The notes under the pieces: model-generated
Databases searched by the model: none
Seen by the model: only the letters and a program-made list of their open reading frames with translations
What the model was told of the DNA's origin: nothing
Origin: a virus
IMG/VR virus record: IMGVR_UViG_3300048015_000072
Span: 37,057 to 101,056 of that record
Reading direction: 5' to 3' (one strand)
DNA: 64,000 nucleotides
Program-made: the position numbers and the translations under genes
Shown: one piece after another, positions 2,035-35,810 of the stretch
How positions within the stretch are numbered: position 1 is the stretch's first letter
How the letters are laid out: each line of letters opens with the position of its first letter

Positions 2035-2135
2035 ACCTGAAAAAGCCATTAAACGCTCTAATACTCGATTCTTGAGGTTTTGGCCCAGATAGCCAGGTAA
2101 CGCCAGGGGTGTGCTGTTTTACCCAATTCAAGCCC

Positions 2136-2163
2136 TAAAGTTATTCAACCCATTTGCCGAATA
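2136..2163 (+). promoter_or_regulatory. sigma28/FliA-like promoter
   Basis: TAAAG-N15-GCCGAATA; spacer contains TATTCAACCC, a variant of the genome-wide operator. Confidence 0.55.
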
Positions 2164-2186
2164 ATTAAGTAACTGGGGGATAAGAC

Positions 2187-2363
2187 ATGCAAATCAAAAA
2201 GCTCACTAAAGCTCAAGTTGAGGCCCGAAAACAGATTTTTGAAGCTATGGTCAAATCCAAAGGCTTAAAAGCCGCTCGAGCGTATTTCTTGAACCCAAAA
2301 AACCAGGAACTCATAAATACCTTTGCAGAATCATCGTTAATCCAAAGATTGACCTGCAAATAA
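2187..2363 (+). CDS. small basic hypothetical protein (58 aa)
   Basis: MQIKKLTKAQVEARKQ...; GGGGGA RBS; below ORF-track cutoff. Confidence 0.55.
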   Translation: MQIKKLTKAQVEARKQIFEAMVKSKGLKAARAYFLNPKNQELINTFAESSLIQRLTCK

Positions 2364-2384
2364 AATAACCAGGGGATAACTACC

Positions 2385-2567
2385 GTGGAACTAAAAGAAA
2401 CCAAGGCTCAGCTAAAAATTTGGTATTACGACCAAGAAGTCACTGTTATCGGGGAAAGCCTTACAGAATATCTCGTGATATCCAACGACATGCAAGAACT
2501 CACTATCCCAAAGTATCCAGAATTGGAACGTGGGTTAAATAAATACTTCCAAAATTCGAAAACCTAG
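2385..2567 (+). CDS. hypothetical protein
   Basis: GTG start after AGGGG RBS. Confidence 0.5.
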   Translation: MELKETKAQLKIWYYDQEVTVIGESLTEYLVISNDMQELTIPKYPELERGLNKYFQNSKT

Positions 2568-2575
2568 TTTAACCT
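2547..2575 (+). promoter_or_regulatory. sigma70-like promoter for the structured RNA at 2582
   Basis: TTCCAA-N17-TAACCT; +1 predicted near 2582; GGGTTAAATA operator at 2532-2541. Confidence 0.45.
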
Positions 2576-2581
2576 GATCAG

Positions 2582-2735
2582 GTAAAGGCGGCGGGGGAAG
2601 CTATGGTGAGCAAGTGGGGAAACTCAAGATTAGCGCCATTAGAGACACGCAGAGCGATTACTTACGGGTATCAAGATCTTTGAGTCCAAGTACCTAAACA
2701 GAACCCGATAGCCAGAGTCGCGTCTGGCCCTTTAC
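2582..2735 (+). ncRNA. candidate tRNA-like/C4-like structured RNA
   Basis: 7-bp terminal stem GTAAAGG/CCTTTAC stacked on GCCAGA/TCTGGC hairpin; ATGGTG/CGCCAT; TGGG-GAAA-CTCA tetraloop; CGGGT/ACCCG. Confidence 0.5.
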
Positions 2736-2765
2736 GCTTTTAAAATAACCAAAGGAGCAAACGAA

Positions 2766-2984
2766 ATGAAAATTTTGAAAGTATTTAAGGGATTTGGAAA
2801 TCATTCTGTTTGCTATTCGACGATAAACGAAGATGAAAGCTATAACCAAATCGATTGCCAAGCGATTGAAGAATTTTACGATGTTGGTGGTATTCTCAAT
2901 GTTCAAATAACATTTGGAACTGAAGAAGACTCAAAAATTCGACTTGTAAGAATAATCAACCCAGACATTTTGGTATACGAATGA
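2766..2984 (+). CDS. hypothetical protein
   Basis: AAGGAG RBS. Confidence 0.6.
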   Translation: MKILKVFKGFGNHSVCYSTINEDESYNQIDCQAIEEFYDVGGILNVQITFGTEEDSKIRLVRIINPDILVYE

Positions 2985-3497
2985 ATTCCAAAAAATTGCA
3001 AACTTTGGCAGAATATGTCTTTTATGACTACGAATCAGACGAACTGAAAATCATGTTGGTATTCTCCAAAACTAACTTAAAGAAATTCACCAAACATTTT
3101 CCAATAATCAAATTGGGGAAATTTTAACTTCGAGCAATGAATTTTTCGAAATTCTAAAAAATGATTTCAAAAAAGGTAAATATTTAATTTTAATTAACTT
3201 TTCACAATTTAATTTCGGTGAATTGAGAATTGCGCTTGGAGAAAAGCCACGTTGAATGGAATGAAACGTGGCTGGGATTGAGCATTTGATATCAAGAATC
3301 GAGCATGTGAAATCAAATTTAAGCCACGCCAGGGTGGTATCTTTACAAGGTAACGCCAAAGTCGAGTGCTGCGTATGCCGTACCTCAGCCTCTTTTGGAT
3401 TTTCGTTACAGATCTTCTAAAAGTGGTTTTTAATTTTACCCCAAATCGAATAGAATAAAGTAGAACGCCTGGAATCGATTCTAGGTATAATTGGCGT

Positions 3498-26741: not shown

Positions 26742-27581
26742 ATGAGTAAAACCATAAAGGAGTACACCAATTCTTTAGGGTTAATTACGGCAGGTCCCCC
26801 TGATTTCAACGGGGGAGATACTTGTTCTCGCCAAATGACTATTGGTTATTGCACAAAAATATGTTTTCCCGAACGTGACATTTTTGCGGACTACGAAAAC
26901 AAATTAAATTTACTTTTAGACAAACCAACCAACCATTACATACGCTGCCCCGATCCCGTAAATTGTTGTAAAGATCCTTTGAATTTCTCCAGAGATCAAA
27001 TGATTCCTTTGATGGCTTTTTTGATGGCAGAACCAAGTCATACTTGGCACAAATGGAATCTACTTTGGCAGCACGCAAAACACGGATTTTTATTTGCATT
27101 CAATTGGAAAAATAATAATCAATATCCAACTCAAACTCTTCAAGACCAATACGCAAACGGAAATCCTTGGAATTACAAATCCAAAATGCCGGACATTACG
27201 TTTCTGGATATTTGGGGACTTTGGATTCGGGTTCTTAGACTTTATCCGTTGTGGCCGCTTTTGCTCATCACTGATTTTTACAATATTTTTGGATCGTTGA
27301 TTCGAGTGTATCAAACCTATGCTTTTAAATGGTTTAAATGGGGCAGTGGTCCTGACCGAGATAACCAAAACATCATCTTGATTTGTGACACCTCAATTAG
27401 GGTGATGCCTACGCCTCTGGGATATTTGGCTTATTGGCTATTAAAAACAACAGATCTCACCACACAAATAAATGAGTTTTTTATTCAACGTCAAGATCAG
27501 CCTCCCGTTGATCAGTATTTGTTTCGATTGCTTGGTTATCAATATCAAGACTTAAAAGTTTTGCCTTGCGAGGAACCATGA
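26742..27581 (+). CDS. hypothetical protein (Trp-rich, hydrophobic) upstream of endolysin
   Basis: 279-aa ORF coupled to endolysin. Confidence 0.65.
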   Translation: MSKTIKEYTNSLGLITAGPPDFNGGDTCSRQMTIGYCTKICFPERDIFADYENKLNLLLDKPTNHYIRCPDPVNCCKDPLNFSRDQMIPLMAFLMAEPSHTWHKWNLLWQHAKHGFLFAFNWKNNNQYPTQTLQDQYANGNPWNYKSKMPDITFLDIWGLWIRVLRLYPLWPLLLITDFYNIFGSLIRVYQTYAFKWFKWGSGPDRDNQNIILICDTSIRVMPTPLGYLAYWLLKTTDLTTQINEFFIQRQDQPPVDQYLFRLLGYQYQDLKVLPCEEP

Positions 27582-28030
27582 GCATTTCAAAAGAAGAATT
27601 ACTAAAAGGTAGAGACGTACAGTACGCCAGCGATTACACCCAAGAAATCTCAGATAATTTAGACAAGCTTTTGATCCCGTTAAATAAGGTCCGAGACGCA
27701 TTTGGAAAACCAATGACCGTAAATTCCGGATGGCGTCCTCCATCAATTAATGGAGCAACTCCCGGTGCGGCAGCTCATTCAAAACATATGATTGGATTGG
27801 CTGCGGATATTGCAGATCCAAATAATGAAGTGATGAATTGGGTTTTGCAGAATTTAGATTTGATGCAAGAACTTGGATTCTTTTTTGAGGATTTTCGTTG
27901 GACGCCGGGTTGGGTACATTTCGGTTTAGGCGCTCCTGCATCGGGCAAAAGAATATTTGTACCAAGTGCTGCAAGACCTACCGCCCCTGATCGCTGGGAC
28001 GGCCAATACGATTCCAAATACGACGTTTAA
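27578..28030 (+). CDS. peptidase M15A family endolysin
   Basis: SGWRPP..N, SKHMIGLAADI (SxHxxGxAxD), WVH zinc ligands; ATG after GAGG. Confidence 0.88.
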   Translation: MSISKEELLKGRDVQYASDYTQEISDNLDKLLIPLNKVRDAFGKPMTVNSGWRPPSINGATPGAAAHSKHMIGLAADIADPNNEVMNWVLQNLDLMQELGFFFEDFRWTPGWVHFGLGAPASGKRIFVPSAARPTAPDRWDGQYDSKYDV

Positions 28031-28938: not shown

Positions 28939-29475
28939 TCATGTTTTTGGTGTTCCTGGATCTTTCAAAACAACTGAAGCTTCTCCGAGGTCTTTGATTT
29001 CTTCTCCAGTATCGATGTCTTTGTAAAACCTAATGCCTCTCAAAAACTGAGAAGGGTCTTTGTCGTCCAGCATCCAAGACGGCTTTGGAAGTATTGCGGT
29101 TACATAACCAGTCAACCCCAAAAACTCAACTACAGCCCTGGCCCACTTAACTCCGCCTACGCTCCAAACGATCACTCCGATTCCTCTGGCTCTAAATTGC
29201 TTGATCAGTTCAACGTGGTGTTTATGAACAAGTACTTTTGCGTTAAAACCAAACGATGAAAAATCAACTGCATCCTTTGCCCTTGATTCTGGAAAATTCA
29301 AAAATACCAAAGTCTCATCAACGTCTACATAAAGGGTGCGGTCATAGTCGTGGAATACGGTTTTGTTTTCAGGAGCAAGTACAATCGATGGCTTTGGAGT
29401 CTCCACAACTGTGTTTTTGTAGTGCTCGATAAAATCTCGAACAGGAATAAAATCGTTAGTTTTATAGTTTTTCAT
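28939..29475 (-). CDS. HAD-superfamily hydrolase
   Basis: DVDETL motif I, VWS, KP...LDD. Confidence 0.8.
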   Translation of the reverse strand: MKNYKTNDFIPVRDFIEHYKNTVVETPKPSIVLAPENKTVFHDYDRTLYVDVDETLVFLNFPESRAKDAVDFSSFGFNAKVLVHKHHVELIKQFRARGIGVIVWSVGGVKWARAVVEFLGLTGYVTAILPKPSWMLDDKDPSQFLRGIRFYKDIDTGEEIKDLGEASVVLKDPGTPKT

Positions 29476-31009
29476 AAACTTTTACGTCTCCCCCGAAAGT
29501 GTTCTGATAAATGGATTCTCGAATTTTGGAATGCTTTGCTAAAAAATTGGTTCCGTAGAAATTGAAATCGTGAACTAGGGCTTTCTTTTTGCCCTCCGCT
29601 AAGCGAACCGCACGTCCAATAGCTTGAACAATTGCAATCTCAGACTTACCCCCGCGCGCGAGAATCAGGCGGTCTGTACTAAAAAGATCAATCCCTTCTC
29701 CAAGGACGGTAGAGGCGATCAGAATGCGAATATGCTTTTCGTTAAACTCCGCAATAGCTTCGGAAATAATATCTTTGGAATGGTCTCCAGACACGTAGGT
29801 GCTATCAATCCCCTGGCTGTTTAAATAATCGTGTATGACTGATCCTACAGTTGCCTTGCGATCTACAAGTATGAGGATTTGTTCTGTACTGGCTGCATTG
29901 AATATGATCTTGGAGATCTCCTCTAAAAATGGTTCGTTGTCTCCATAATTGTTTGAGTACTCTGTTTGGTATTTCTTTGAGGATTTTCCCGGAAGTTGAT
30001 GAATGTGAAACTGTACGGGGGTTAAGAATCCTTCGATTGTTGCCTTGTAAGCCGGATATGAATAAAGCTTTTCAGACAAAAACCCGTGCATGTCCATGGT
30101 CTTGGAATCGTTACGAAGGAATGTACCCGTAAATCCGAATCTATAGAACACATGATCCAGGTCAGAAAGAATGTTGGTGTAAGACTTGGAGCCAGAATGA
30201 TGAATTTCATCACATACCAAAAGTTGGACGTCTTGGACCAATTTGTTGTGAATTCCTTGTTTTTGCAAAGAGGCCAAAGTCTGTATAGTGCAAAGGCGAA
30301 TATTGCCTAAGCGTTTGCCATTCTTCACTTTGTCGGTTGTGACTTGCTCTACATGCTTTTTACCAAAAGCCAAGGTTAGAACTCTTAGGGTTTGCTGAAC
30401 GAGGGTACTGGACGGTAAAACTACAAGGGTTACTACCTCTAGTTCCTTAATGATCTGGGTAATAATCCGACTTTTACCGCTACCCACTGCACTTTCAAAT
30501 ACTCCGCGGTGTTTACTCAAAGCCAAGTCCACCATCTCTGCTTGGTAATAGCGCATCCTTGGCGGTTGATTCTTCCAACGTAAGGTCAAGGTAGGGGCGG
30601 GCTTAATGCGTAGATCCTTGAGGCTATAGGGCTCATTTAAAGACTTAAGGATACGCTCCACCAAACTAAGCAATCCAGTTGGGAACTCCGGCGTGACTTT
30701 AGATTCGTCAAACCAACAAACTACTTCCTGTGAAGCTAAATCATCAAACTGCTTTTTTGCACCAAACAACATCTTCCTGTTCTGACGTTTTTTGGCATAG
30801 GCCATCTTTCGGAGTAATGCGCTCCTTTGTTGTTTTACCTCTTCATTGGTGTACGTGAGAGCTGCCCGAATCTCATCTGATGCTTTTTGTGTTGCTCCAA
30901 ATAGCTTAGTGAAAGAGTTGCCTATGAGCAAAACGCAACCTTCCGAAGAGTTGTCTGGTTTTAATTTGTTGGATTTTGAATAGAGTGCAGCAAGCTTCTT
31001 AAGACTCAT
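29462..31009 (-). CDS. superfamily 2 DExH helicase (UvsW/XPB-like)
   Basis: RYYQ, AVGSGKS, DEIH, GFTGT, QAIGRAVR. Confidence 0.92.
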   Translation of the reverse strand: MSLKKLAALYSKSNKLKPDNSSEGCVLLIGNSFTKLFGATQKASDEIRAALTYTNEEVKQQRSALLRKMAYAKKRQNRKMLFGAKKQFDDLASQEVVCWFDESKVTPEFPTGLLSLVERILKSLNEPYSLKDLRIKPAPTLTLRWKNQPPRMRYYQAEMVDLALSKHRGVFESAVGSGKSRIITQIIKELEVVTLVVLPSSTLVQQTLRVLTLAFGKKHVEQVTTDKVKNGKRLGNIRLCTIQTLASLQKQGIHNKLVQDVQLLVCDEIHHSGSKSYTNILSDLDHVFYRFGFTGTFLRNDSKTMDMHGFLSEKLYSYPAYKATIEGFLTPVQFHIHQLPGKSSKKYQTEYSNNYGDNEPFLEEISKIIFNAASTEQILILVDRKATVGSVIHDYLNSQGIDSTYVSGDHSKDIISEAIAEFNEKHIRILIASTVLGEGIDLFSTDRLILARGGKSEIAIVQAIGRAVRLAEGKKKALVHDFNFYGTNFLAKHSKIRESIYQNTFGGDVKVYEKL

Positions 31010-31015
31010 TGTAAA

Positions 31016-31058
31016 AGGATATTACTTTATTTAACCTTTTGAAAGCGTTATTTAACCC
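31016..31058 (-). promoter_or_regulatory. leaderless sigma70-like promoter of the helicase with two operators
   Basis: TTTCAA-N17-TATCCT-N6-ATG; TATTTAACCT 31028-31037 and TATTTAACCC 31049-31058. Confidence 0.55.
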
Positions 31059-31078
31059 AAAGCTTGTAATTCGGATGT

Positions 31079-31111
31079 TGGCGGATAAATGTCGTATAAA
31101 TGGCGGATATC
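31079..31111. repeat. three tandem imperfect 11-bp repeats
   Basis: TGGCGGATAAA / TGTCGTATAAA / TGGCGGATATC. Confidence 0.55.
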
Positions 31112-31132
31112 TAGGATTGATTATAGATTCTC

Positions 31133-31648
31133 AAGACAATAGTACCCCCTACTTCTTAATCACCTTTATCGTGAGCCGTGTAACCTAGAAAGTGGGTGAC
31201 ACCGAGAAGTATCGCTTGGGGTTCTACGCTTAGAGTGTTCGTCCGAGATTGATCTGCTACTGGGAATCTCGATACTCAATTACAAGTATCTGGTAAGCCA
31301 GTGTTGTTCCCACCGCTTGTGAGCAGGAGGGTGATCAGTGCTCAAGAAGACTAGAAGAAGAGAGCTAGAGGCTTTCCACGCTACCAACATGGTTCCTCCT
31401 ACAGGATCTCTCTCGGATACACTCTAGGCTATCGTCCGATGAAGCAACAAGCGGGGATGGGCATGGGGGCTTAACTCTAGTCTATGCCCTAGGCTCACTA
31501 TGCTATTTCATCGCTATCGGGTATTTCTTTCGAGTACCCCTTCGCCTGGTTTTGGTGATTGGTTCTTGATTAACCGTACAAGGCTTGCCTTGCTAAGGCG
31601 TTAATCTTTACTATCAATCCCCGTACCGATCCGTAGTACTGAAGTCTT
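31133..31648 (+). ncRNA. candidate large structured noncoding RNA (about 516 nt), class unknown
   Basis: No ORF of 60 aa or more in any frame; paired ends; interrupted helix of about 23 bp (31228-31255/31404-31429); several 7-9 bp helices; crossing pairings; G-U wobbles favour the + strand. Confidence 0.65.
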
Positions 31649-31667
31649 TTACAGGCTATGCATCGAC

Positions 31668-31931
31668 TTAATGTTTTTTGATTGGCCCTTCAATGGGTTC
31701 ATTAGCAAATTGCTCTGCCAAGGTTTGATGGTAATGACGTTGAACTTCTCTTAAGTCTCGAAGCTCAAGAAACGCACTACTGCACCATTTAAGGACTTCT
31801 TCAAAGGTTGCTAAAAGCTCTTCGTAATTATCGAATTTGATATCTTTGAGGGATGCTTCCGGCACACCCATGCGGCGTTGACAGTCTTGAAACAGACGAT
31901 CTGATTCTAAAAGGAAGTCTTTCTTTTTCAA
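31668..31931 (-). CDS. hypothetical protein
   Basis: TTG start after GAGG; converges on the candidate RNA. Confidence 0.55.
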   Translation of the reverse strand: MKKKDFLLESDRLFQDCQRRMGVPEASLKDIKFDNYEELLATFEEVLKWCSSAFLELRDLREVQRHYHQTLAEQFANEPIEGPIKKH

Positions 31932-31996
31932 AAGAACCTCGGGTTTGTTTCAATTGTGATGACTTTGATTTGGGTCATACGCAGCATCATTTCAAC

Positions 31997-32076
31997 ATGA
32001 TACACGAAAAGGGTTAAATAAATCAACAAGTGGGTTGAACAAAAGCATTGCAAGGGTTAAATAAACGTGAGATCCT
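31997..32076. promoter_or_regulatory. divergent sigma70-like promoter pair with three operators
   Basis: Minus strand TTGATT-N18-TATCAT; plus strand TTGCAA-N17-GATCCT; operators at 32011, 32032 (variant) and 32054. Confidence 0.55.
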
Positions 32077-32101
32077 GGGTTTGAGCCTTGGAGGTACGTT
32101 T

Positions 32102-32401
32102 ATGAACCGAGTATTGGAATTAGTAACTTTGGTGTTTGTGATAATTATTGGAATACCGATAGTTCGATACATTGCTTACACTCCCCCTCAAGGTTCCTTT
32201 CAAGTTGGGGATTGCGTTCGAGTGTCTGAGACTGATCCTTGGCAAGCAGATACGTTTAAAATTACGGATATAGGTAAATACTCAGTCAGAGTTTATTGTG
32301 TTTACGAAAGCGGATTAGTTTGTTCGGTGTCAGAAACAATCAAATTCAAAGAACTTAGGAATCAGTATTCAAAAGTCGATTGTCCAAAGGAATCCAAATG
32401 A
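32102..32401 (+). CDS. membrane-anchored hypothetical protein
   Basis: ATG after GGAGG; TM helix then FQVGDCV domain. Confidence 0.6.
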   Translation: MNRVLELVTLVFVIIIGIPIVRYIAYTPPQGSFQVGDCVRVSETDPWQADTFKITDIGKYSVRVYCVYESGLVCSVSETIKFKELRNQYSKVDCPKESK

Positions 32402-32799
32402 TTCATTTCATAATCAATTTGGTTCTAGCGTATTTTGGTATTGGGATTTTGTTCGCTGCAATTTACGCCGGAACTTACATGAGTAGTGTAAGAGAAGCTT
32501 TGGATCGAGTTGAAGATTTATTTATGATCCTCATGCAAGGTCCAGTGTTGATCTTTAAAGGTGCAGTAATTGCCATTGAAAAAGAAAATACTAAAGGTCT
32601 TCAATACGAAGAAGAAGAACGAGCCCGCAAATCTTTAATTGAAAAAATACTAGAGCGACAAAATGAAGTCATTAAGTACAGAGTTCGAGTGCTTAAAGAA
32701 GCAAACGAAATTCTTCAAAAAGAAAACGAAGCACTAAAGTTACAACTTTCAGTTTCAAAACCTAAAACGCAAAAGAAAAAATCGAGGGTACGCGCATGA
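32398..32799 (+). CDS. membrane protein with coiled coil
   Basis: N-terminal TM; ATGA coupling. Confidence 0.55.
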
Positions 32800-33578
32800 A
32801 AATCACAATTGCAATTGCGTTAGGTATGACAATGGTTTCTTGCGGCCAAAACTTTAGAGAAATTCAGGCCCCAACATACAATAGCGAGTGGTCATTTAGT
32901 CGGGATCTCAACTTAAATTCAGTTTGTGCATCCGGAACCGGCATATTGATGAGTGAGGGTTTAGACCTCAATCGAAATGGTATTTTGGATGCGACTGAAA
33001 TCCAACAAACGATGCCTGTTTGTGATGGTGCAAAAGGCGATCCCGGTGCGACTGGCCCTCAAGGTCCAACCGGAGCAACAGGCGCTACTGGATCTACAGG
33101 AGCAACTGGACCACAAGGGCCTACTGGCGCTACGGGGGCAACAGGTTCCTCGGGAAGTAACGGTACATCTTGCACAGTCAGTGAAGTCCCACCGACTACT
33201 GGGTTAGCTACAGGCGCTGCGAAAATCACATGTGGTTCAAATTCCGTCTTGGTTTATAACGGCAGCACGAGTCCCGTTTCAGAATCTTACAGTCTGGTTC
33301 AGGAAATTACCCCTTGTGGAGCAAACAGTAGCCCGTACAAAGAAGTTTTACTTCAGTTTGCTGATGGACATCTCCTAGGAAGTTTTTCTGATACGGCCTC
33401 TGGGTCAAATACGAGATTTGCAAATATGACTGATGGGTCGTTCGTCGATACGGATAACAGCGGTTGTAATTTCACAATCTCAACCAACGGTAGCACTCGA
33501 AGCATTAGTTGGGCCGCCGGACACAACCAATATTCCACTTGGTCAGCTCAAACTTTAAGTTGGCCCATTTACTATTAA
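32796..33578 (+). CDS. lipoprotein with collagen-like repeat
   Basis: Lipobox MVSC; [11 protein letters not shown]; 16 Gly-X-Y triplets (33027-33170). Confidence 0.8.
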
Positions 33579-33585
33579 GGCATTT

Positions 33586-33810
33586 ATGTTTTTAATCGCA
33601 GCGATCCTTTTTTGTACCAAGACTCAAGTAATCAACGCGACCGACACTTGGAATATGCAGGATGCCAAAGCTTTAGAGCGGGCAACTGCACACTGCGGGG
33701 ATGAATACAAAGATGCACCTTGCCTTAAAATTTTTAAGAAATCCGAACAAGGTGTTTACTCAGCGATTTGTGGCTCTACAGCTACTACTAGTCTCGAGCG
33801 GCAATTATGA
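33586..33810 (+). CDS. small secreted Cys-rich protein
   Basis: Four Cys, hydrophobic N-terminus. Confidence 0.55.
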   Translation: MFLIAAILFCTKTQVINATDTWNMQDAKALERATAHCGDEYKDAPCLKIFKKSEQGVYSAICGSTATTSLERQL

Positions 33811-34028
33811 AAAAGTTTACCTCGATCTTTTTAATTAATCTCGTTTTGACCTTCTCTTTTTCGATTTTGCTTTCAGTGTTTGTTCTCGGGCTTGGCGAAA
33901 ACGAATCTGGAAAACAGATTGTAGAGTCCACATCAGTAGCCATGGGTTTTTTTGGAATTCCCTATTCGGTTTTTGCGAGCGTTTTGACGTATCTAATCAC
34001 CAAACTCGGAGTTTTTAAAAATGAATGA
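33807..34028 (+). CDS. small membrane protein
   Basis: Two TM helices. Confidence 0.55.
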   Translation: MKKFTSIFLINLVLTFSFSILLSVFVLGLGENESGKQIVESTSVAMGFFGIPYSVFASVLTYLITKLGVFKNE

Positions 34029-34209
34029 AGTGCAAATCCAACTCAAAAGTGCTGCTTTTGATTCTTTTATGATCTCCGCCTTTTTTGCATTTTTGGGAAT
34101 CATTATGCTGAGCAACGGCATTTGGTTCGGAATTATTCAAATTGGTCTTTCGCTTTTAAACGCCTTAGTCGGTGCAAAACGATACCGCCTTAGCAAGGAA
34201 ATAAAATGA
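34021..34209 (+). CDS. small membrane protein
   Basis: Two TM helices; coupled to GroEL. Confidence 0.5.
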   Translation: MNEVQIQLKSAAFDSFMISAFFAFLGIIMLSNGIWFGIIQIGLSLLNALVGAKRYRLSKEIK

Positions 34210-35810
34210 GCTTCAAAAGAATCACTCACAAGAATGAGTTTTCACAAAAAATTAAAATTGGTGTAAATGAGATCTCCAGTATCGTAGCCCGAACTCTGGG
34301 TCCCGGGGGTTTGCCAATCCTGCTTGAGCGCCAAGGCGTTTCACATACCGGAGACCCTCTCACTCCCCTAATTACCAAAGACGGCGTAACGGTAGCTTCT
34401 GAGTGCTCTAATCCTGATCCAGAGATTGATCTTGTCATCCAAACCATCAAAACAATTTGTATCAAAACTAACCGCGTAGCTGGTGATGGAACCACAACTG
34501 CTATTGTCCTTGGTGCAGCTATTTTAAAAGAATGCCTAGAGCGCCTAGAAAAAGACTCAAAACTCAATCCTCAAATAGTAAAGAGATCTTTGGAGGCCGC
34601 TTCAAGGAATGTACTTGAACAATTGAAGGCCCTTGCCATTCCGGTCAAAGATCCAAAGATGATTGAAGACGTTGCAACTATCTCGGCAAATGGAGATGCT
34701 GAAATTGGAAGCATTATCCGTCAAGCGTTTGATGCTGTCGGAGCTGAAGGTGTTATCACAGTAGATGAGGGTTACACCCCTAAAACAACTTTGGATATTG
34801 TAGAAGGTTTTCAAATTCGTCGGGGAGCTGAAGCTCAAGATCGATTTTTTAATAATTCAGATCGTACCAAGTTTGAAGCTGAAAACGTCCGGGTACTTTT
34901 ATTTGACGGCAAGCTCAATTCATTCAATGACATTTTGCCAGCTCTAAACGCAATCGCAGCCGAAAACCCAACCAAGATCCCCCCGATTGCTATTGTGGCC
35001 CACGAGTTTTCACCAGAAGTTATCCAGTTTCTTTTAATTCAAAAAGTCGAACACAGTTTAAACTTTTGCGCAGTTAAAGCTCCGCACACAACCACTGTCA
35101 GGACTTCAATGCTAGATGATATGGCCGTAATGCTTGATGGCTACCGTTTTGGTAACGGAAACCGAGATATGTCTTCCGCAAAATCAGAACAAATCGGCGG
35201 CTGCGAAAAAGTGGTTATTGACAAGTACACCGCTACTTTCTACGGAGGATTCGGAGACGAGTCCGATGTAATTGCCCGAGTAGAACAATTAAAGGCGGCT
35301 CGAAAGACCGCGGAAAGTCCATATGATGCGGCATTAATTTCTGATCGAATTGCGGCTCTTTCTCAAGGCATCGCTAAAATTGGCGTTGGTGGGTCAACCG
35401 ATTTAGAAGTTAAAGAACTTTATCATAGAATTGAAGATGCCCTAAATGCCGCTCGTGCAGCGGTTGAGGAGGGTATTATCCCCGGCGGCGGGGTAGTACT
35501 CGCACGCATTGCAAACAAATTTGCAAGCTCTGAACAAATTGGCGAACAAATTCTCGCAAACGCATTGATAGCACCCCTTCTTCAAATTATTCAAAACATC
35601 GGAGAAGACGCTCATGAGATATTGTTTTCTCTTCCCCACCAATTAGAAAATATGACCTATGATGCAGTTAACAAGCAATGGGTAAACGCTCTTGAAATGG
35701 GTATTATAGATCCAGTTAAAGTCACAAGAACCGCTCTAGAAAACGCCGTATCCATTGCAAGCTTGTTATCAACCTCCGGCGGCGGAATCGTCTTTAATCG
35801 ACCACAATAG
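34206..35810 (+). CDS. groEL: phage-encoded chaperonin GroEL (Cpn60)
   Basis: TLGPGG, ITKDGVTVA, AGDGTTT, GIIPGGG, GIIDPVKVTRTALENA; lacks GGM tail. Confidence 0.93.
   Translation: MSFKRITHKNEFSQKIKIGVNEISSIVARTLGPGGLPILLERQGVSHTGDPLTPLITKDGVTVASECSNPDPEIDLVIQTIKTICIKTNRVAGDGTTTAIVLGAAILKECLERLEKDSKLNPQIVKRSLEAASRNVLEQLKALAIPVKDPKMIEDVATISANGDAEIGSIIRQAFDAVGAEGVITVDEGYTPKTTLDIVEGFQIRRGAEAQDRFFNNSDRTKFEAENVRVLLFDGKLNSFNDILPALNAIAAENPTKIPPIAIVAHEFSPEVIQFLLIQKVEHSLNFCAVKAPHTTTVRTSMLDDMAVMLDGYRFGNGNRDMSSAKSEQIGGCEKVVIDKYTATFYGGFGDESDVIARVEQLKAARKTAESPYDAALISDRIAALSQGIAKIGVGGSTDLEVKELYHRIEDALNAARAAVEEGIIPGGGVVLARIANKFASSEQIGEQILANALIAPLLQIIQNIGEDAHEILFSLPHQLENMTYDAVNKQWVNALEMGIIDPVKVTRTALENAVSIASLLSTSGGGIVFNRPQ

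What the first reader, a model, noticed from the sequence alone, without database searches (positions are those of the whole stretch)
31133..31648. Candidate new large structured ncRNA (about 516 nt) with paired ends and multiple pseudoknots
Seen: this is the only ORF-free stretch of about 650 bp in an otherwise tightly packed genome, and it is dense with complementarity. The ends pair: AAGAC-AA-TAGTAC (31133-45) with GTACTG-AA-GTCTT (31636-48). Other helices: TTAATCACC (31156-64)/GGTGATTGG (31554-62); GTGAGCC (31171-77)/GGCTCAC (31492-98); hairpin GTGT-A-ACCTA-GAAAG-TGGGT-G-ACAC (31178-202); an interrupted helix of about 23 bp, GCTTAGAGTGT..TCCGAGA..GATCT (31228-55) with GGATC..TCTCGGA..ACACTCTAGGC (31404-29); local hairpins GATACT/AGTATC, CTGG-TAAG-CCAG, TGAGCA/TGCTCA, GGGCATGG/CTATGCCC, GATTAAC/GTTAATC. 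Crossing pairings: CCGCTTGT (31313-20)/ACAAGCGG (31447-54), CGATGAA (31437-43)/TTCATCG (31507-13), AGGAGG (31325-30)/CCTCCT (31395-400), AGACTAGA (31348-55)/TCTAGTCT (31476-83). Non-Watson-Crick positions are mostly G-U on the + strand. Some pairings overlap and may be alternatives. Established: phages carry large ornate RNAs such as GOLLD and ROOL; I do not find tmRNA, RNase P or intron consensus here. Inference: a functional RNA of unknown class, transcribed divergently from a UvsW-like helicase. It could be a ribozyme or scaffold RNA, or a ColE1 RNA II-like/R-loop replication primer, given the helicase neighbour, the upstream tandem repeats and the family A polymerase.
Basis: partly seen in the sequence, partly recalled or inferred. 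Interest (0 to 1): 0.88.

Follow-up and report, generated by a model that had tools for sequence, protein, structure and literature searches.

The report
Orphan folded RNA candidate beside phage helicase
A 0.5-kb gene-free, unusually G+C-rich stretch next to a phage helicase gene folds better than any other part of the 64-kb window and matches no known RNA or protein family. No related copy could be found anywhere, so it remains a plausible but unproven new structured RNA.

Summary
Window 31010-31667 is non-coding: all six frames carry all three stop codons, and no Pfam or PHROG remnant was found. It folds better than chance (+ strand -173.4 kcal/mol, z -3.15) and has the best GC-corrected fold of 318 tiles. 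Perfect stems of at least 7 bp are twice the shuffle mean (15 against 7.05).

No Rfam family matches, even at E up to 10, and there is no tRNA or tmRNA.

Several claims do not hold up:
- The proposed pseudoknots are individually at chance level.
- The end-to-end stem disappears when flanks are added.
- The strand is unresolved, because shuffle z-scores are similar on both strands.
- It is not the only ORF-poor stretch in the window.

No homolog was found in GenBank phages, plasmids, IMG/VR, JGI metagenomes or 23 whole records of related phages, by BLAST, nhmmer or two covariance models. Covariation therefore cannot be tested.

In at least 14 relatives the helicase sits 176-452 nt from a divergent GroEL gene. 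Here the two are 3.2 kb apart, so the element lies in a lineage-specific insertion.

This scan has noted large folded RNAs next to other phages' helicase genes, but none resembles this one in sequence.

Verdict: a credible but unverified orphan structured RNA of moderate interest.

The parts
31133..31648 (+). The robust core is about 31140-31540. The strand is not settled, with + slightly favoured.
   Evidence: MFE z -3.15 (+) and -2.62 (-). Best of 318 GC-corrected tiles. No Rfam hit. No coding remnant.
31140..31226 (+). 5' domain. A closing helix (31140-31157 with 31204-31226) encloses two hairpins (31160-31174 and 31178-31202).
   Evidence: Pair probabilities 0.78-0.96. Domain z -1.8 on + and -0.5 on -.
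31228..31429 (+). Domain B. An interrupted helix of 11+8+5 bp closes a branched 148-nt interior. It is the strongest structural signal and has the size and form of an RNase III-type stalk.
   Evidence: Pair probabilities 0.95-0.99. z -3.2 (+) and -3.9 (-). Inverted repeats I5 and I6.
31437..31513 (+). Domain C. A stem 31437-42/31508-13 encloses a G-rich hairpin. The G-rich tract at 31451-31470 is the only one of its kind in the window.
   Evidence: Pair probabilities 0.65-0.93. z -2.4 (+) and -1.8 (-). G-tract scan.
31519..31539 (+). An 8-bp hairpin that needs two U-G pairs on the + strand. These positions are C-A mismatches on the - strand.
   Evidence: Pair probability 0.91. Sequence read directly.
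31568..31606 (+). 3' hairpin (GATTAA/TTAATC with an inner CAAGG/CCTTG). It is less certain than the other helices.
   Evidence: Pair probabilities 0.64-0.65. Domain D z -1.5.
31320..31344 (+). Hairpin TGAGCA/TGCTCA. Its loop shows AGGAGG-G-TGATC, which is 11 nt complementary to the near-universal 16S rRNA 3' tail apart from one extra G. A GTG at 31338 opens a 29-codon ORF (31338-31427).
   Evidence: AGGAGG occurs only 8 times on both strands of the 64 kb. The ORF's codon usage looks like the null. The 16S complementarity rests on my knowledge of the conserved 16S tail.
31395..31400 (+). CCTCCT. On the + strand it is a possible internal partner of AGGAGG 31325-31330. On the - strand it reads AGGAGG, 4 nt before an ATG (31390) that opens a 36-codon ORF (31390 down to 31280) with a moderately hydrophobic N-terminus.
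31644..31667 (.). A 24-nt motif (GTCTTTTWCAGGCTAYGCATCGAC) shared 22/24 with the closest accessible relative, in the same helicase-GroEL intergenic region. It is single-copy in each genome. It abuts the 3' end of the fold on +, which is the 5' side on the helicase-sense strand.
31668..31931 (-). ORF87, an orphan 87-codon ORF with a GAGG 7 nt before its TTG start. Whether it is a real gene is unclear.
   Evidence: Only a self-hit among 1.84 billion representative proteins. No Pfam or PHROG family. Codon score lies between the real and null distributions. The ESM Atlas search was uninformative.
31027..31058 (-). Two copies of the phage-wide GGGTTAAATAA motif, 21 nt apart, lying between the fold and the helicase ATG. 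A mirror pair sits at 32011-32064 (+).
   Evidence: 30 copies in the window against 2.3 expected. Inverted repeats I1-I4.
29462..31009 (-). SF2 helicase of the XPB/UvsW type, the conserved neighbour gene.

Best explanation
The stretch is a real, lineage-specific structured RNA element of about 0.5 kb. It is not a gene remnant and not a member of any catalogued RNA family. Most likely it is made as a discrete, stable, multi-domain non-coding transcript from the + strand. That transcript would start near 31133-31140 and end near 31650-31680. It has a 5' three-way domain, a long stalk-closed central domain, a G-rich domain and 3' hairpins. It lies in a 3.2-kb accessory insertion in the early/replication control region, between the helicase and GroEL genes. 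I infer that it acts in trans as an accessory RNA (scaffold or decoy, as is suspected for other large phage RNAs), rather than being essential to the phage family. What is shown: it is non-coding, G+C-enriched, folds exceptionally well, belongs to no known family and is absent from relatives. What is inferred: that it is transcribed, which strand, where its ends lie, and every part of its function.
For: All six frames carry all three stop types. No Pfam or PHROG remnant appears in the six-frame read-through. The mini-ORFs have null-like codon usage. G+C is 0.48-0.50 against about 0.40. MFE z is -3.15, with 0 of 100 shuffles as good. It ranks first of 318 GC-corrected tiles in 64 kb. Each of the four sub-domains is more stable than its shuffles on +. 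Stems of 7 bp or more are twice the expected number, P about 0.007. High-probability helices persist when flanks are added. The fold stops at about 31650, since the next 362 nt have z -0.56. The + strand has 19 G-U pairs and no A-C mismatches, against 12 G-U and three A-C on -. No Rfam, tRNA or tmRNA match was found.
Against: There is only one sequence, so there is no homolog and no covariation. A z of about -3 is significant but modest, and much of it comes from one long inverted repeat that is equally stable on both strands. No convincing promoter or intrinsic terminator brackets it on +. A/T skew and the flanking genes match the - strand. The only conserved neighbouring element is syntenic on the helicase-sense strand.
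Confidence: 0.4

Rival explanations
1. The fold belongs to the helicase-sense (-) transcript. It would be a long structured leader of the helicase message, or the 3' UTR of ORF87. It would control helicase expression, message stability or processing, for example through RNase III cleavage of the 24-bp stalk.
For: ORF87 and the helicase are both on the - strand, with the fold between them. A sigma-70-like promoter, TTGATT-18-TATCAT, points leftward at 32026-31997. The 24-nt motif just upstream of the fold on - is conserved in the closest accessible relative, upstream of its HNH-helicase operon and in the same orientation. Core z is -3.0 and domain B z is -3.9 on -. A/T skew resembles that of - strand genes. 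Unchecked earlier notes of this scan describe large folded leaders before helicase genes in T5-like and other phages.
Against: Two copies of the promoter-like GGGTTAAATAA motif lie between the fold and the helicase ATG, which suggests the helicase has its own start. The - strand has fewer G-U pairs and three A-C mismatches where + has G-U. Domains A, C and D are weaker on -. The corresponding region of L002 does not fold better than shuffles, z -0.18 and -1.26.
Confidence: 0.25
2. It is a type-I-toxin-antitoxin-like or small-protein locus. Two convergent overlapping transcripts would each carry a perfect AGGAGG and a mini-ORF (29 codons on +, 36 codons on -). Each ribosome-binding site would be masked by the internal complement, as in hok/sok or AapA/IsoA messages.
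For: AGGAGG is rare, with 8 copies on both strands of the 64 kb. Two of them lie here, one per strand, each 4-7 nt before a start codon. The two are mutually complementary. The 36-residue product begins with a moderately hydrophobic stretch of about 17 residues (my reading). Type I loci are typically orphan, highly folded, 'empty' intergenic regions of 300-600 nt (established knowledge).
Against: Codon-usage scores of both mini-ORFs (-0.04 and -0.09) lie below the 5th percentile of real 32-codon chunks and near the null mean. The hydrophobic stretch is short and interrupted by Lys and Ser. The + peptide is hydrophilic. There are no homologs. The two AGGAGG copies are equally well explained as a single helix.
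Confidence: 0.1
3. It is a DNA-level or R-loop element of the replication origin. The region would work as DNA (protein-binding repeats, unwinding) or as a template for a primer transcript, with the G-rich RNA tract forming a persistent hybrid that the UvsW/XPB-like helicase regulates.
For: It lies at the divergent point between the helicase and the other replication and early genes. In relatives the equivalent intergenic region carries iteron-like direct repeats. A G-rich tract at 31451-31470 is the only one in the window. The neighbouring helicase resembles T4 UvsW, which is known to unwind origin R-loops (established knowledge). There is a local minimum of cumulative GC skew near here.
Against: The stretch is G+C-rich rather than A+T-rich. 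It has no iterons or tandem repeats of its own. It is absent from relatives, which must also replicate. The global GC-skew minimum is elsewhere and skew is weak. The arms of the main inverted repeat are 150 nt apart, which is unfavourable for cruciform formation.
Confidence: 0.1
4. It is non-functional DNA, a piece of foreign or decayed sequence carried in the accessory insertion, whose self-complementarity has no role.
For: It is a singleton with no conservation anywhere searched. It sits in a variable 3.2-kb insertion beside an orphan ORF. About half of its 7-bp stems are expected by chance. No transcription signals were found.
Against: Phage genomes are tightly packed and lose useless DNA. 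It is the best-folding 516 nt in 64 kb. No protein remnant is detectable in any frame. Its G+C content is raised in the way typical of structured RNAs in A+T-rich genomes.
Confidence: 0.15

Closest known systems
ROOL (Rfam RF03087) and GOLLD (RF01998), the large ornate RNAs of phages and prophages
   Same: It is phage-borne, 0.5-0.8 kb, multi-branched, G+C-enriched relative to its genome, non-coding and of unknown function. The cryo-EM preprint 10.1101/2024.12.08.627333 shows that such RNAs can form RNA-only assemblies.
   Different: There is no covariance-model match, even at E up to 10. There are no neighbouring tRNA genes. There is no family of homologs. No GNRA-type loops are evident. Assembly has not been tested.
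Type I toxin-antitoxin messages (hok/sok; AapA1/IsoA1)
   Same: It is a compact, 'empty', highly folded locus of 400-600 nt. It has possible long-range 5'-3' pairing and a strong Shine-Dalgarno sequence with an internal complementary CCUCCU. A mini-ORF is overlapped by the opposite strand.
   Different: The candidate peptides are not convincingly membrane-type. Codon usage looks like the null. There is no evidence of an antisense promoter, and the end pairing is not robust.
ColE1 RNA II pre-primer and T4 origin R-loop transcripts
   Same: It is a folded RNA of about 0.5 kb near replication genes, it has a G-rich tract, and the neighbouring helicase is of the UvsW type.
   Different: There is no defined origin, no antisense RNA I analogue, and no matching C-rich downstream anchor. 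The element is absent from related phages.
RNase III processing stalks (T7 early-mRNA R sites, rRNA precursor stems)
   Same: The interrupted helix of 11+8+5 bp has small internal loops and the right length and form.
   Different: Here the stalk closes a 148-nt branched interior and is only one of four domains. Cleavage has not been tested.
Large folded RNAs upstream of phage replication-helicase genes noted earlier in this scan (T5-like phages, a soil phage, a T4-like vent phage). These are unpublished AI notes.
   Same: It is the same sort of place (a gene-free 0.35-0.7 kb beside a replication helicase), it has no Rfam family, and its function is unknown.
   Different: It shares no sequence with them. 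Those cases were reported with homologs and compensatory changes, and this one has none. Their claims were not checked here.

Membership tests
Any Rfam 15 family (including GOLLD, ROOL, HEARO, OLE, raiA, 6S, RNase P, tmRNA, ribozymes) | Covariance-model score at or above the family's gathering threshold | tested here: not met
   0 matches in the whole window at gathering thresholds. With permissive filters on 30900-32100, no match at E up to 10 falls within 31010-31700. The one hit was an irrelevant lncRNA fragment at 32047-32083.
GOLLD / ROOL | Frequent adjacency to tRNA genes in phages or prophages | tested here: not met
   ARAGORN finds no tRNA or tmRNA in the 64 kb.
Group I / group II self-splicing introns | Interrupts a host gene whose exons join into a complete ORF, and has the catalytic core (P7/P3-P8 or domain V) | tested here: not met
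   The helicase ORF is full-length compared with 120 homologs of 431-552 aa. ORF87 has no relatives. There is no RF00028 or RF00029 hit. The domain-V-like string at 31173-31202 lacks the required lower-stem pairing (read directly).
Type I toxin-antitoxin locus | A small hydrophobic toxin ORF with its own ribosome-binding site | tested here: inconclusive
   A 36-codon ORF on the - strand follows AGGAGG, but its codon usage looks like the null and its hydrophobic stretch is short.
Type I toxin-antitoxin locus | An antisense RNA expressed from the opposite strand | not testable with these tools
   No expression data.
ColE1 RNA II-type primer | A G-rich RNA segment that forms a persistent hybrid at a defined origin, with an antisense regulator | tested here: inconclusive
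   A G-rich tract is present at 31451-31470. The origin, the hybrid and the antisense RNA cannot be tested.
RNase III processing stalk | A helix of about 20 bp or more with small internal loops | tested here: met
   11+8+5 bp with pair probabilities 0.95-0.99. This is shown in silico only, and cleavage has not been tested.
Protein-coding gene or pseudogene | An open frame or a detectable domain remnant | tested here: not met
   Stops of all three kinds occur in all six frames. No Pfam or PHROG match appears in the six-frame translations with X at stops. There is no similarity to the HNH gene that occupies this position in L002.
Conserved structured RNA (any new family) | Homologs with compensatory base changes | tested here: not met
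   No homolog was found in any collection searched, so covariation cannot be assessed.

The most novel reading that the evidence does not exclude
It is the founding (so far only) member of a new class of roughly 0.5-kb multi-domain phage RNA, carried as an accessory 'RNA moron' in the replication-control region. Its function could be tied to ribosomes, through the hairpin loop that displays 11 nt of complementarity to the 16S rRNA tail. Alternatively it could be tied to helicase or R-loop biology.
Probability: 0.3. Interest if true: 0.7.

Novelty: new variant of a known kind. Interest (0 to 1): 0.4.

Why it matters
Large structured RNAs of phages (GOLLD, ROOL) are among the least understood RNAs in biology, and each new unrelated example widens the known range of such RNAs. 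If this one is real, it would be an accessory RNA gained by a single lineage of GroEL-encoding phages of about 100 kb, at the point where replication and early genes diverge. That would add to a recurring pattern of big folded RNAs beside phage helicase genes. As it stands it rests on one sequence. Its value is as a concrete, cheap target for RNA-seq, probing and deletion rather than as an established discovery.

Tried and rejected
1. Known RNA families. Rfam at gathering thresholds and at E up to 10 and ARAGORN found nothing.

2. Recoded or decayed gene. Checked by stop census, Pfam and PHROG searches of six-frame read-throughs with X at stops, and tblastn with the L002 HNH protein. Rejected.

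3. Homolog searches, all negative.
- blastn against GenBank phages and plasmids.
- blastn and nhmmer on 22 helicase-anchored IMG/VR loci.
- BLAST on 22 of the related whole records.
- Single-sequence covariance models of domain C (R1) and domain B (R2) on 24 records, meaning the window's own genome plus 23 relatives.
- Exact-pattern scans of IMG/VR and JGI metagenomes.
- This scan's own index.
- The one 20-mer hit (L046) shows no wider similarity and is taken as chance.

4. Anchoring on neighbours. ORF87 has no relative among 1.84 billion representative proteins. The 139-aa neighbour has none in IMG/VR. The helicase scan of GTDB genomes found only one relative, at 47% identity.

5. A smaller homologous RNA in L002. 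Suspected because of the shared 24-nt motif, but that region folds no better than shuffles. The L013 'match' to the motif lies inside an M15 peptidase gene and is coincidental.

6. MITE or transposon reading. There is no target-site duplication, no second copy in the genome and no copy elsewhere.

7. A sigma-28-like GGCGGATA promoter, prompted by earlier notes. The 8-mer is not enriched in the window.

Relatives cannot be drawn for a virus record.

Full report
CONTEXT. The window is bases 37057-101056 of a 101-kb IMG/VR virus record, estimated 87% complete. The phage encodes an SF2 helicase of the XPB/UvsW type at 29462-31009 on the - strand. It also encodes a GroEL (34206-35810), a DnaB-type primase-helicase and a family A DNA polymerase. 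The helicase has hundreds of relatives at 44-62% identity, many on contigs of about 100-120 kb, so the phage belongs to a large uncultured family.

THE OBSERVATION. Window 31010-31667 has no ORF of 75 codons or more. TAA, TAG and TGA all occur in each of the six frames, so no alternative genetic code opens a frame. Six-frame translations with X at the stops match nothing in Pfam or PHROGs. G+C rises to 0.48-0.50 against about 0.40 around it.

The claim that this is the only ORF-free stretch is not exact. Window 2035-3107 and 33579-34205 also lack long ORFs, although they contain plausible small ones.

IS THE FOLDING MORE THAN CHANCE? Yes, moderately.
- The 516 nt fold to -173.4 kcal/mol on +, with z -3.15 and 0 of 100 dinucleotide shuffles as good. 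On - the values are -159.0 kcal/mol and z -2.62.
- I tiled the whole window in 516-nt pieces on both strands and regressed MFE on G+C. The + strand candidate has the largest negative residual of 318 tiles (-28.8 kcal/mol). The best-scoring tile of the tiling is the one that overlaps it.
- Perfect stems of 7 bp or more number 15, against 7.05 +/- 2.74 in shuffles (P about 0.007). Stems of 8 bp or more number 3, against 1.76 (not significant).

So the region as a whole is enriched in self-complementarity, but any single 7-8-bp long-range pairing, including each proposed pseudoknot, could be chance.

By sub-domain, the strongest signal is the interrupted helix 31228-31255/31404-31429 and its interior, with z -3.2 on + and -3.9 on -. 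The other domains give -1.8 against -0.5 (5' domain), -2.4 against -1.8 (31430-31520) and -1.5 against -1.1 (31521-31625).

The partition function over 31100-31700 keeps most local helices at probabilities of 0.8-0.99. The 362 nt to the right do not fold unusually on + (z -0.56), so the right-hand boundary of the structured stretch near 31650 is sound.

STRAND. The raw energy advantage of + is mostly compositional, because the shuffle means differ by 10 kcal/mol. Three observations favour +. It has 19 G-U pairs and no A-C single mismatches, whereas - has 12 G-U and three A-C. Three of the four sub-domains score better on +. The hairpin 31519-31539 needs two U-G pairs.

Five observations favour -. 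Both flanking ORFs are on it. The A/T skew matches it. A sigma-70-like promoter at 32026-31997 points that way. Domain B and the core score better on it. The one conserved neighbouring element is syntenic on it (next section). I put + slightly ahead, but the question is open.

COMPARATIVE EVIDENCE. No homolog was found. The searches covered GenBank phages and plasmids. They also covered 22 IMG/VR loci anchored on helicase relatives and the whole records behind them. Two covariance models were run on 24 records. Exact-pattern scans covered IMG/VR and JGI metagenomes, and the scan's own index was checked.

In at least 14 relatives GroEL lies divergently just upstream of the helicase. The intergenic region there is 176-452 nt and A+T-rich, and it often carries iteron-like repeats. 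In this phage the two genes are 3.2 kb apart. The extra DNA holds the candidate, the orphan ORF87, two unknown ORFs, a collagen-repeat protein of the tail-fibre type and three small ORFs. The element is therefore a lineage-specific acquisition and not a conserved feature of the family.

The only shared sequence is a 24-nt motif at 31644-31667. It is 22/24 identical to a single-copy site in the same intergenic region of the closest accessible relative, L002 (53% helicase identity). There it lies upstream of an HNH endonuclease gene and the helicase. The two metagenome hits to it are the same phage as L002. The L002 region itself does not fold better than chance.

FEATURES INSIDE THE ELEMENT. 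AGGAGG is rare in this genome, with 8 copies on both strands of the 64 kb. Two of them are here and are mutually complementary (31325-31330, and CCTCCT at 31395-31400).

The first sits in the loop of the hairpin 31320-31344 and continues as G-TGATC. That gives 11 nt of complementarity to the conserved 16S rRNA 3' tail, with one extra G. This statement rests on my knowledge of the 16S tail. A GTG follows 7 nt later and opens a 29-codon ORF. On the other strand, the second AGGAGG precedes an ATG and a 36-codon ORF with a moderately hydrophobic start.

Both mini-ORFs have codon usage typical of non-coding frames. This arrangement could be a simple helix, a ribosome-binding feature, or a type-I-toxin-antitoxin-like pair. 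I rank the last as a minor rival.

A G-rich tract at 31451-31470 is the only one of its kind in the window. It keeps the R-loop primer idea alive but does not test it.

TRANSCRIPTION SIGNALS. Neither strand shows a convincing promoter-terminator pair around the element. A -10-like TAGATT at 31124-31129 would place a start near 31136, but it has no -35 element (my reading). The phage-wide motif GGGTTAAATAA has 30 copies against 2.3 expected, mostly in intergenic regions. It flanks the 950-nt block of candidate plus ORF87 as inverted pairs. One pair lies between the fold and the helicase ATG, which argues that the helicase has its own start.

VERDICT. The best explanation is a genuine but orphan structured RNA element: about 0.65 for either strand taken together, and 0.4 for a discrete + strand RNA. 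Lesser possibilities are a small-ORF or toxin-antitoxin-like locus, an origin or R-loop element, and functionless acquired DNA.

It is not a member of any known family. It resembles the large ornate phage RNAs in kind only. Earlier unchecked notes of this scan describe large folded RNAs beside helicase genes of other phages. That makes the setting less surprising, but it is not evidence for this case.

Without homologs or expression data the claim cannot be raised further, so interest is moderate.

Noticed in passing
window, 30 sites, e.g. 2532, 8423/8447, 31027/31048(-), 32011/32054, 36158/36180, 51324/51342, 58338/58358: The 11-mer GGGTTAAATAA (one mismatch allowed) occurs 30 times against 2.3 expected. 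It is often in pairs 16-24 nt apart and mostly in intergenic regions, usually just upstream of gene starts. Some copies are inverted, lying after gene ends or forming hairpins (12499/12515, 22263/22281). It is probably a phage-specific promoter or regulator site.
   Followed up: partly
window 31644-31667; L002:905-928: A single-copy 24-nt motif, GTCTTTTWCAGGCTAYGCATCGAC, is conserved 22/24 between two phages whose helicases are only 53% identical. It lies in the same helicase-GroEL intergenic region. It fits no sigma-70, sigma-54 or sigma-28 pattern that I could see. It may be an operator, an origin site or an endonuclease site.
   Followed up: partly
window 31060-34205: The helicase and GroEL genes are adjacent and divergent in at least 14 relatives, but here they are separated by 3.2 kb. 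The extra DNA holds the RNA candidate, the orphan ORF87, two unknown ORFs (117 and 139 aa), a 260-aa collagen-repeat/DUF7151 protein of the tail-fibre type and three small ORFs. This is an accessory insertion hotspot.
   Followed up: partly
window 31320-31344: A hairpin loop displays AGGAGG-G-TGATC, an unusually long complement to the 16S rRNA 3' tail. In this genome AGGAGG is depleted, with 8 copies in 128 kb of both strands.
   Followed up: partly
L002:1185-1697: The closest accessible relative has a 170-aa HNH endonuclease gene between the shared motif and the helicase. The window has no trace of it.
   Followed up: yes
L005, L013, L015 helicase-GroEL intergenic regions: These A+T-rich intergenic regions of relatives carry short direct repeats. 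L005 has TTCTATAC three times, L013 has TAACATT four times, and L015 has a roughly 16-nt repeat. They look like iterons or operator arrays and suggest that this is the family's origin or early control region.
   Followed up: no
window 2035-3107: This is the longest stretch of the window without an ORF of 75 aa or more (1073 nt). It holds several small ORFs with Shine-Dalgarno-like sites. A GGGTTAAATAA copy at 2532 lies 5 nt before the tRNA-like RNA candidate that another first-stage note placed at 2547-2740.
   Followed up: no
L046:300-450 (IMGVR_UViG_3300031454_000003): An unrelated high-G+C phage shares an exact 21-mer with the G-rich tract. There it is part of a repeated unit, GGGCATGGGGGCTGTRGATAA, next to two DnaA-box-like TGTGGATAA sites. 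That looks like an origin-like intergenic region. There is no wider similarity to the window.
   Followed up: partly
window 27566-28030: A 154-aa Peptidase_M15_3 protein (a likely cell-wall hydrolase) ends the rightward gene block that precedes the leftward helicase block.
   Followed up: no
L010:8868-8940: One relative carries a tRNA gene about 2.4 kb downstream of its helicase. The window itself has no tRNA.
   Followed up: no
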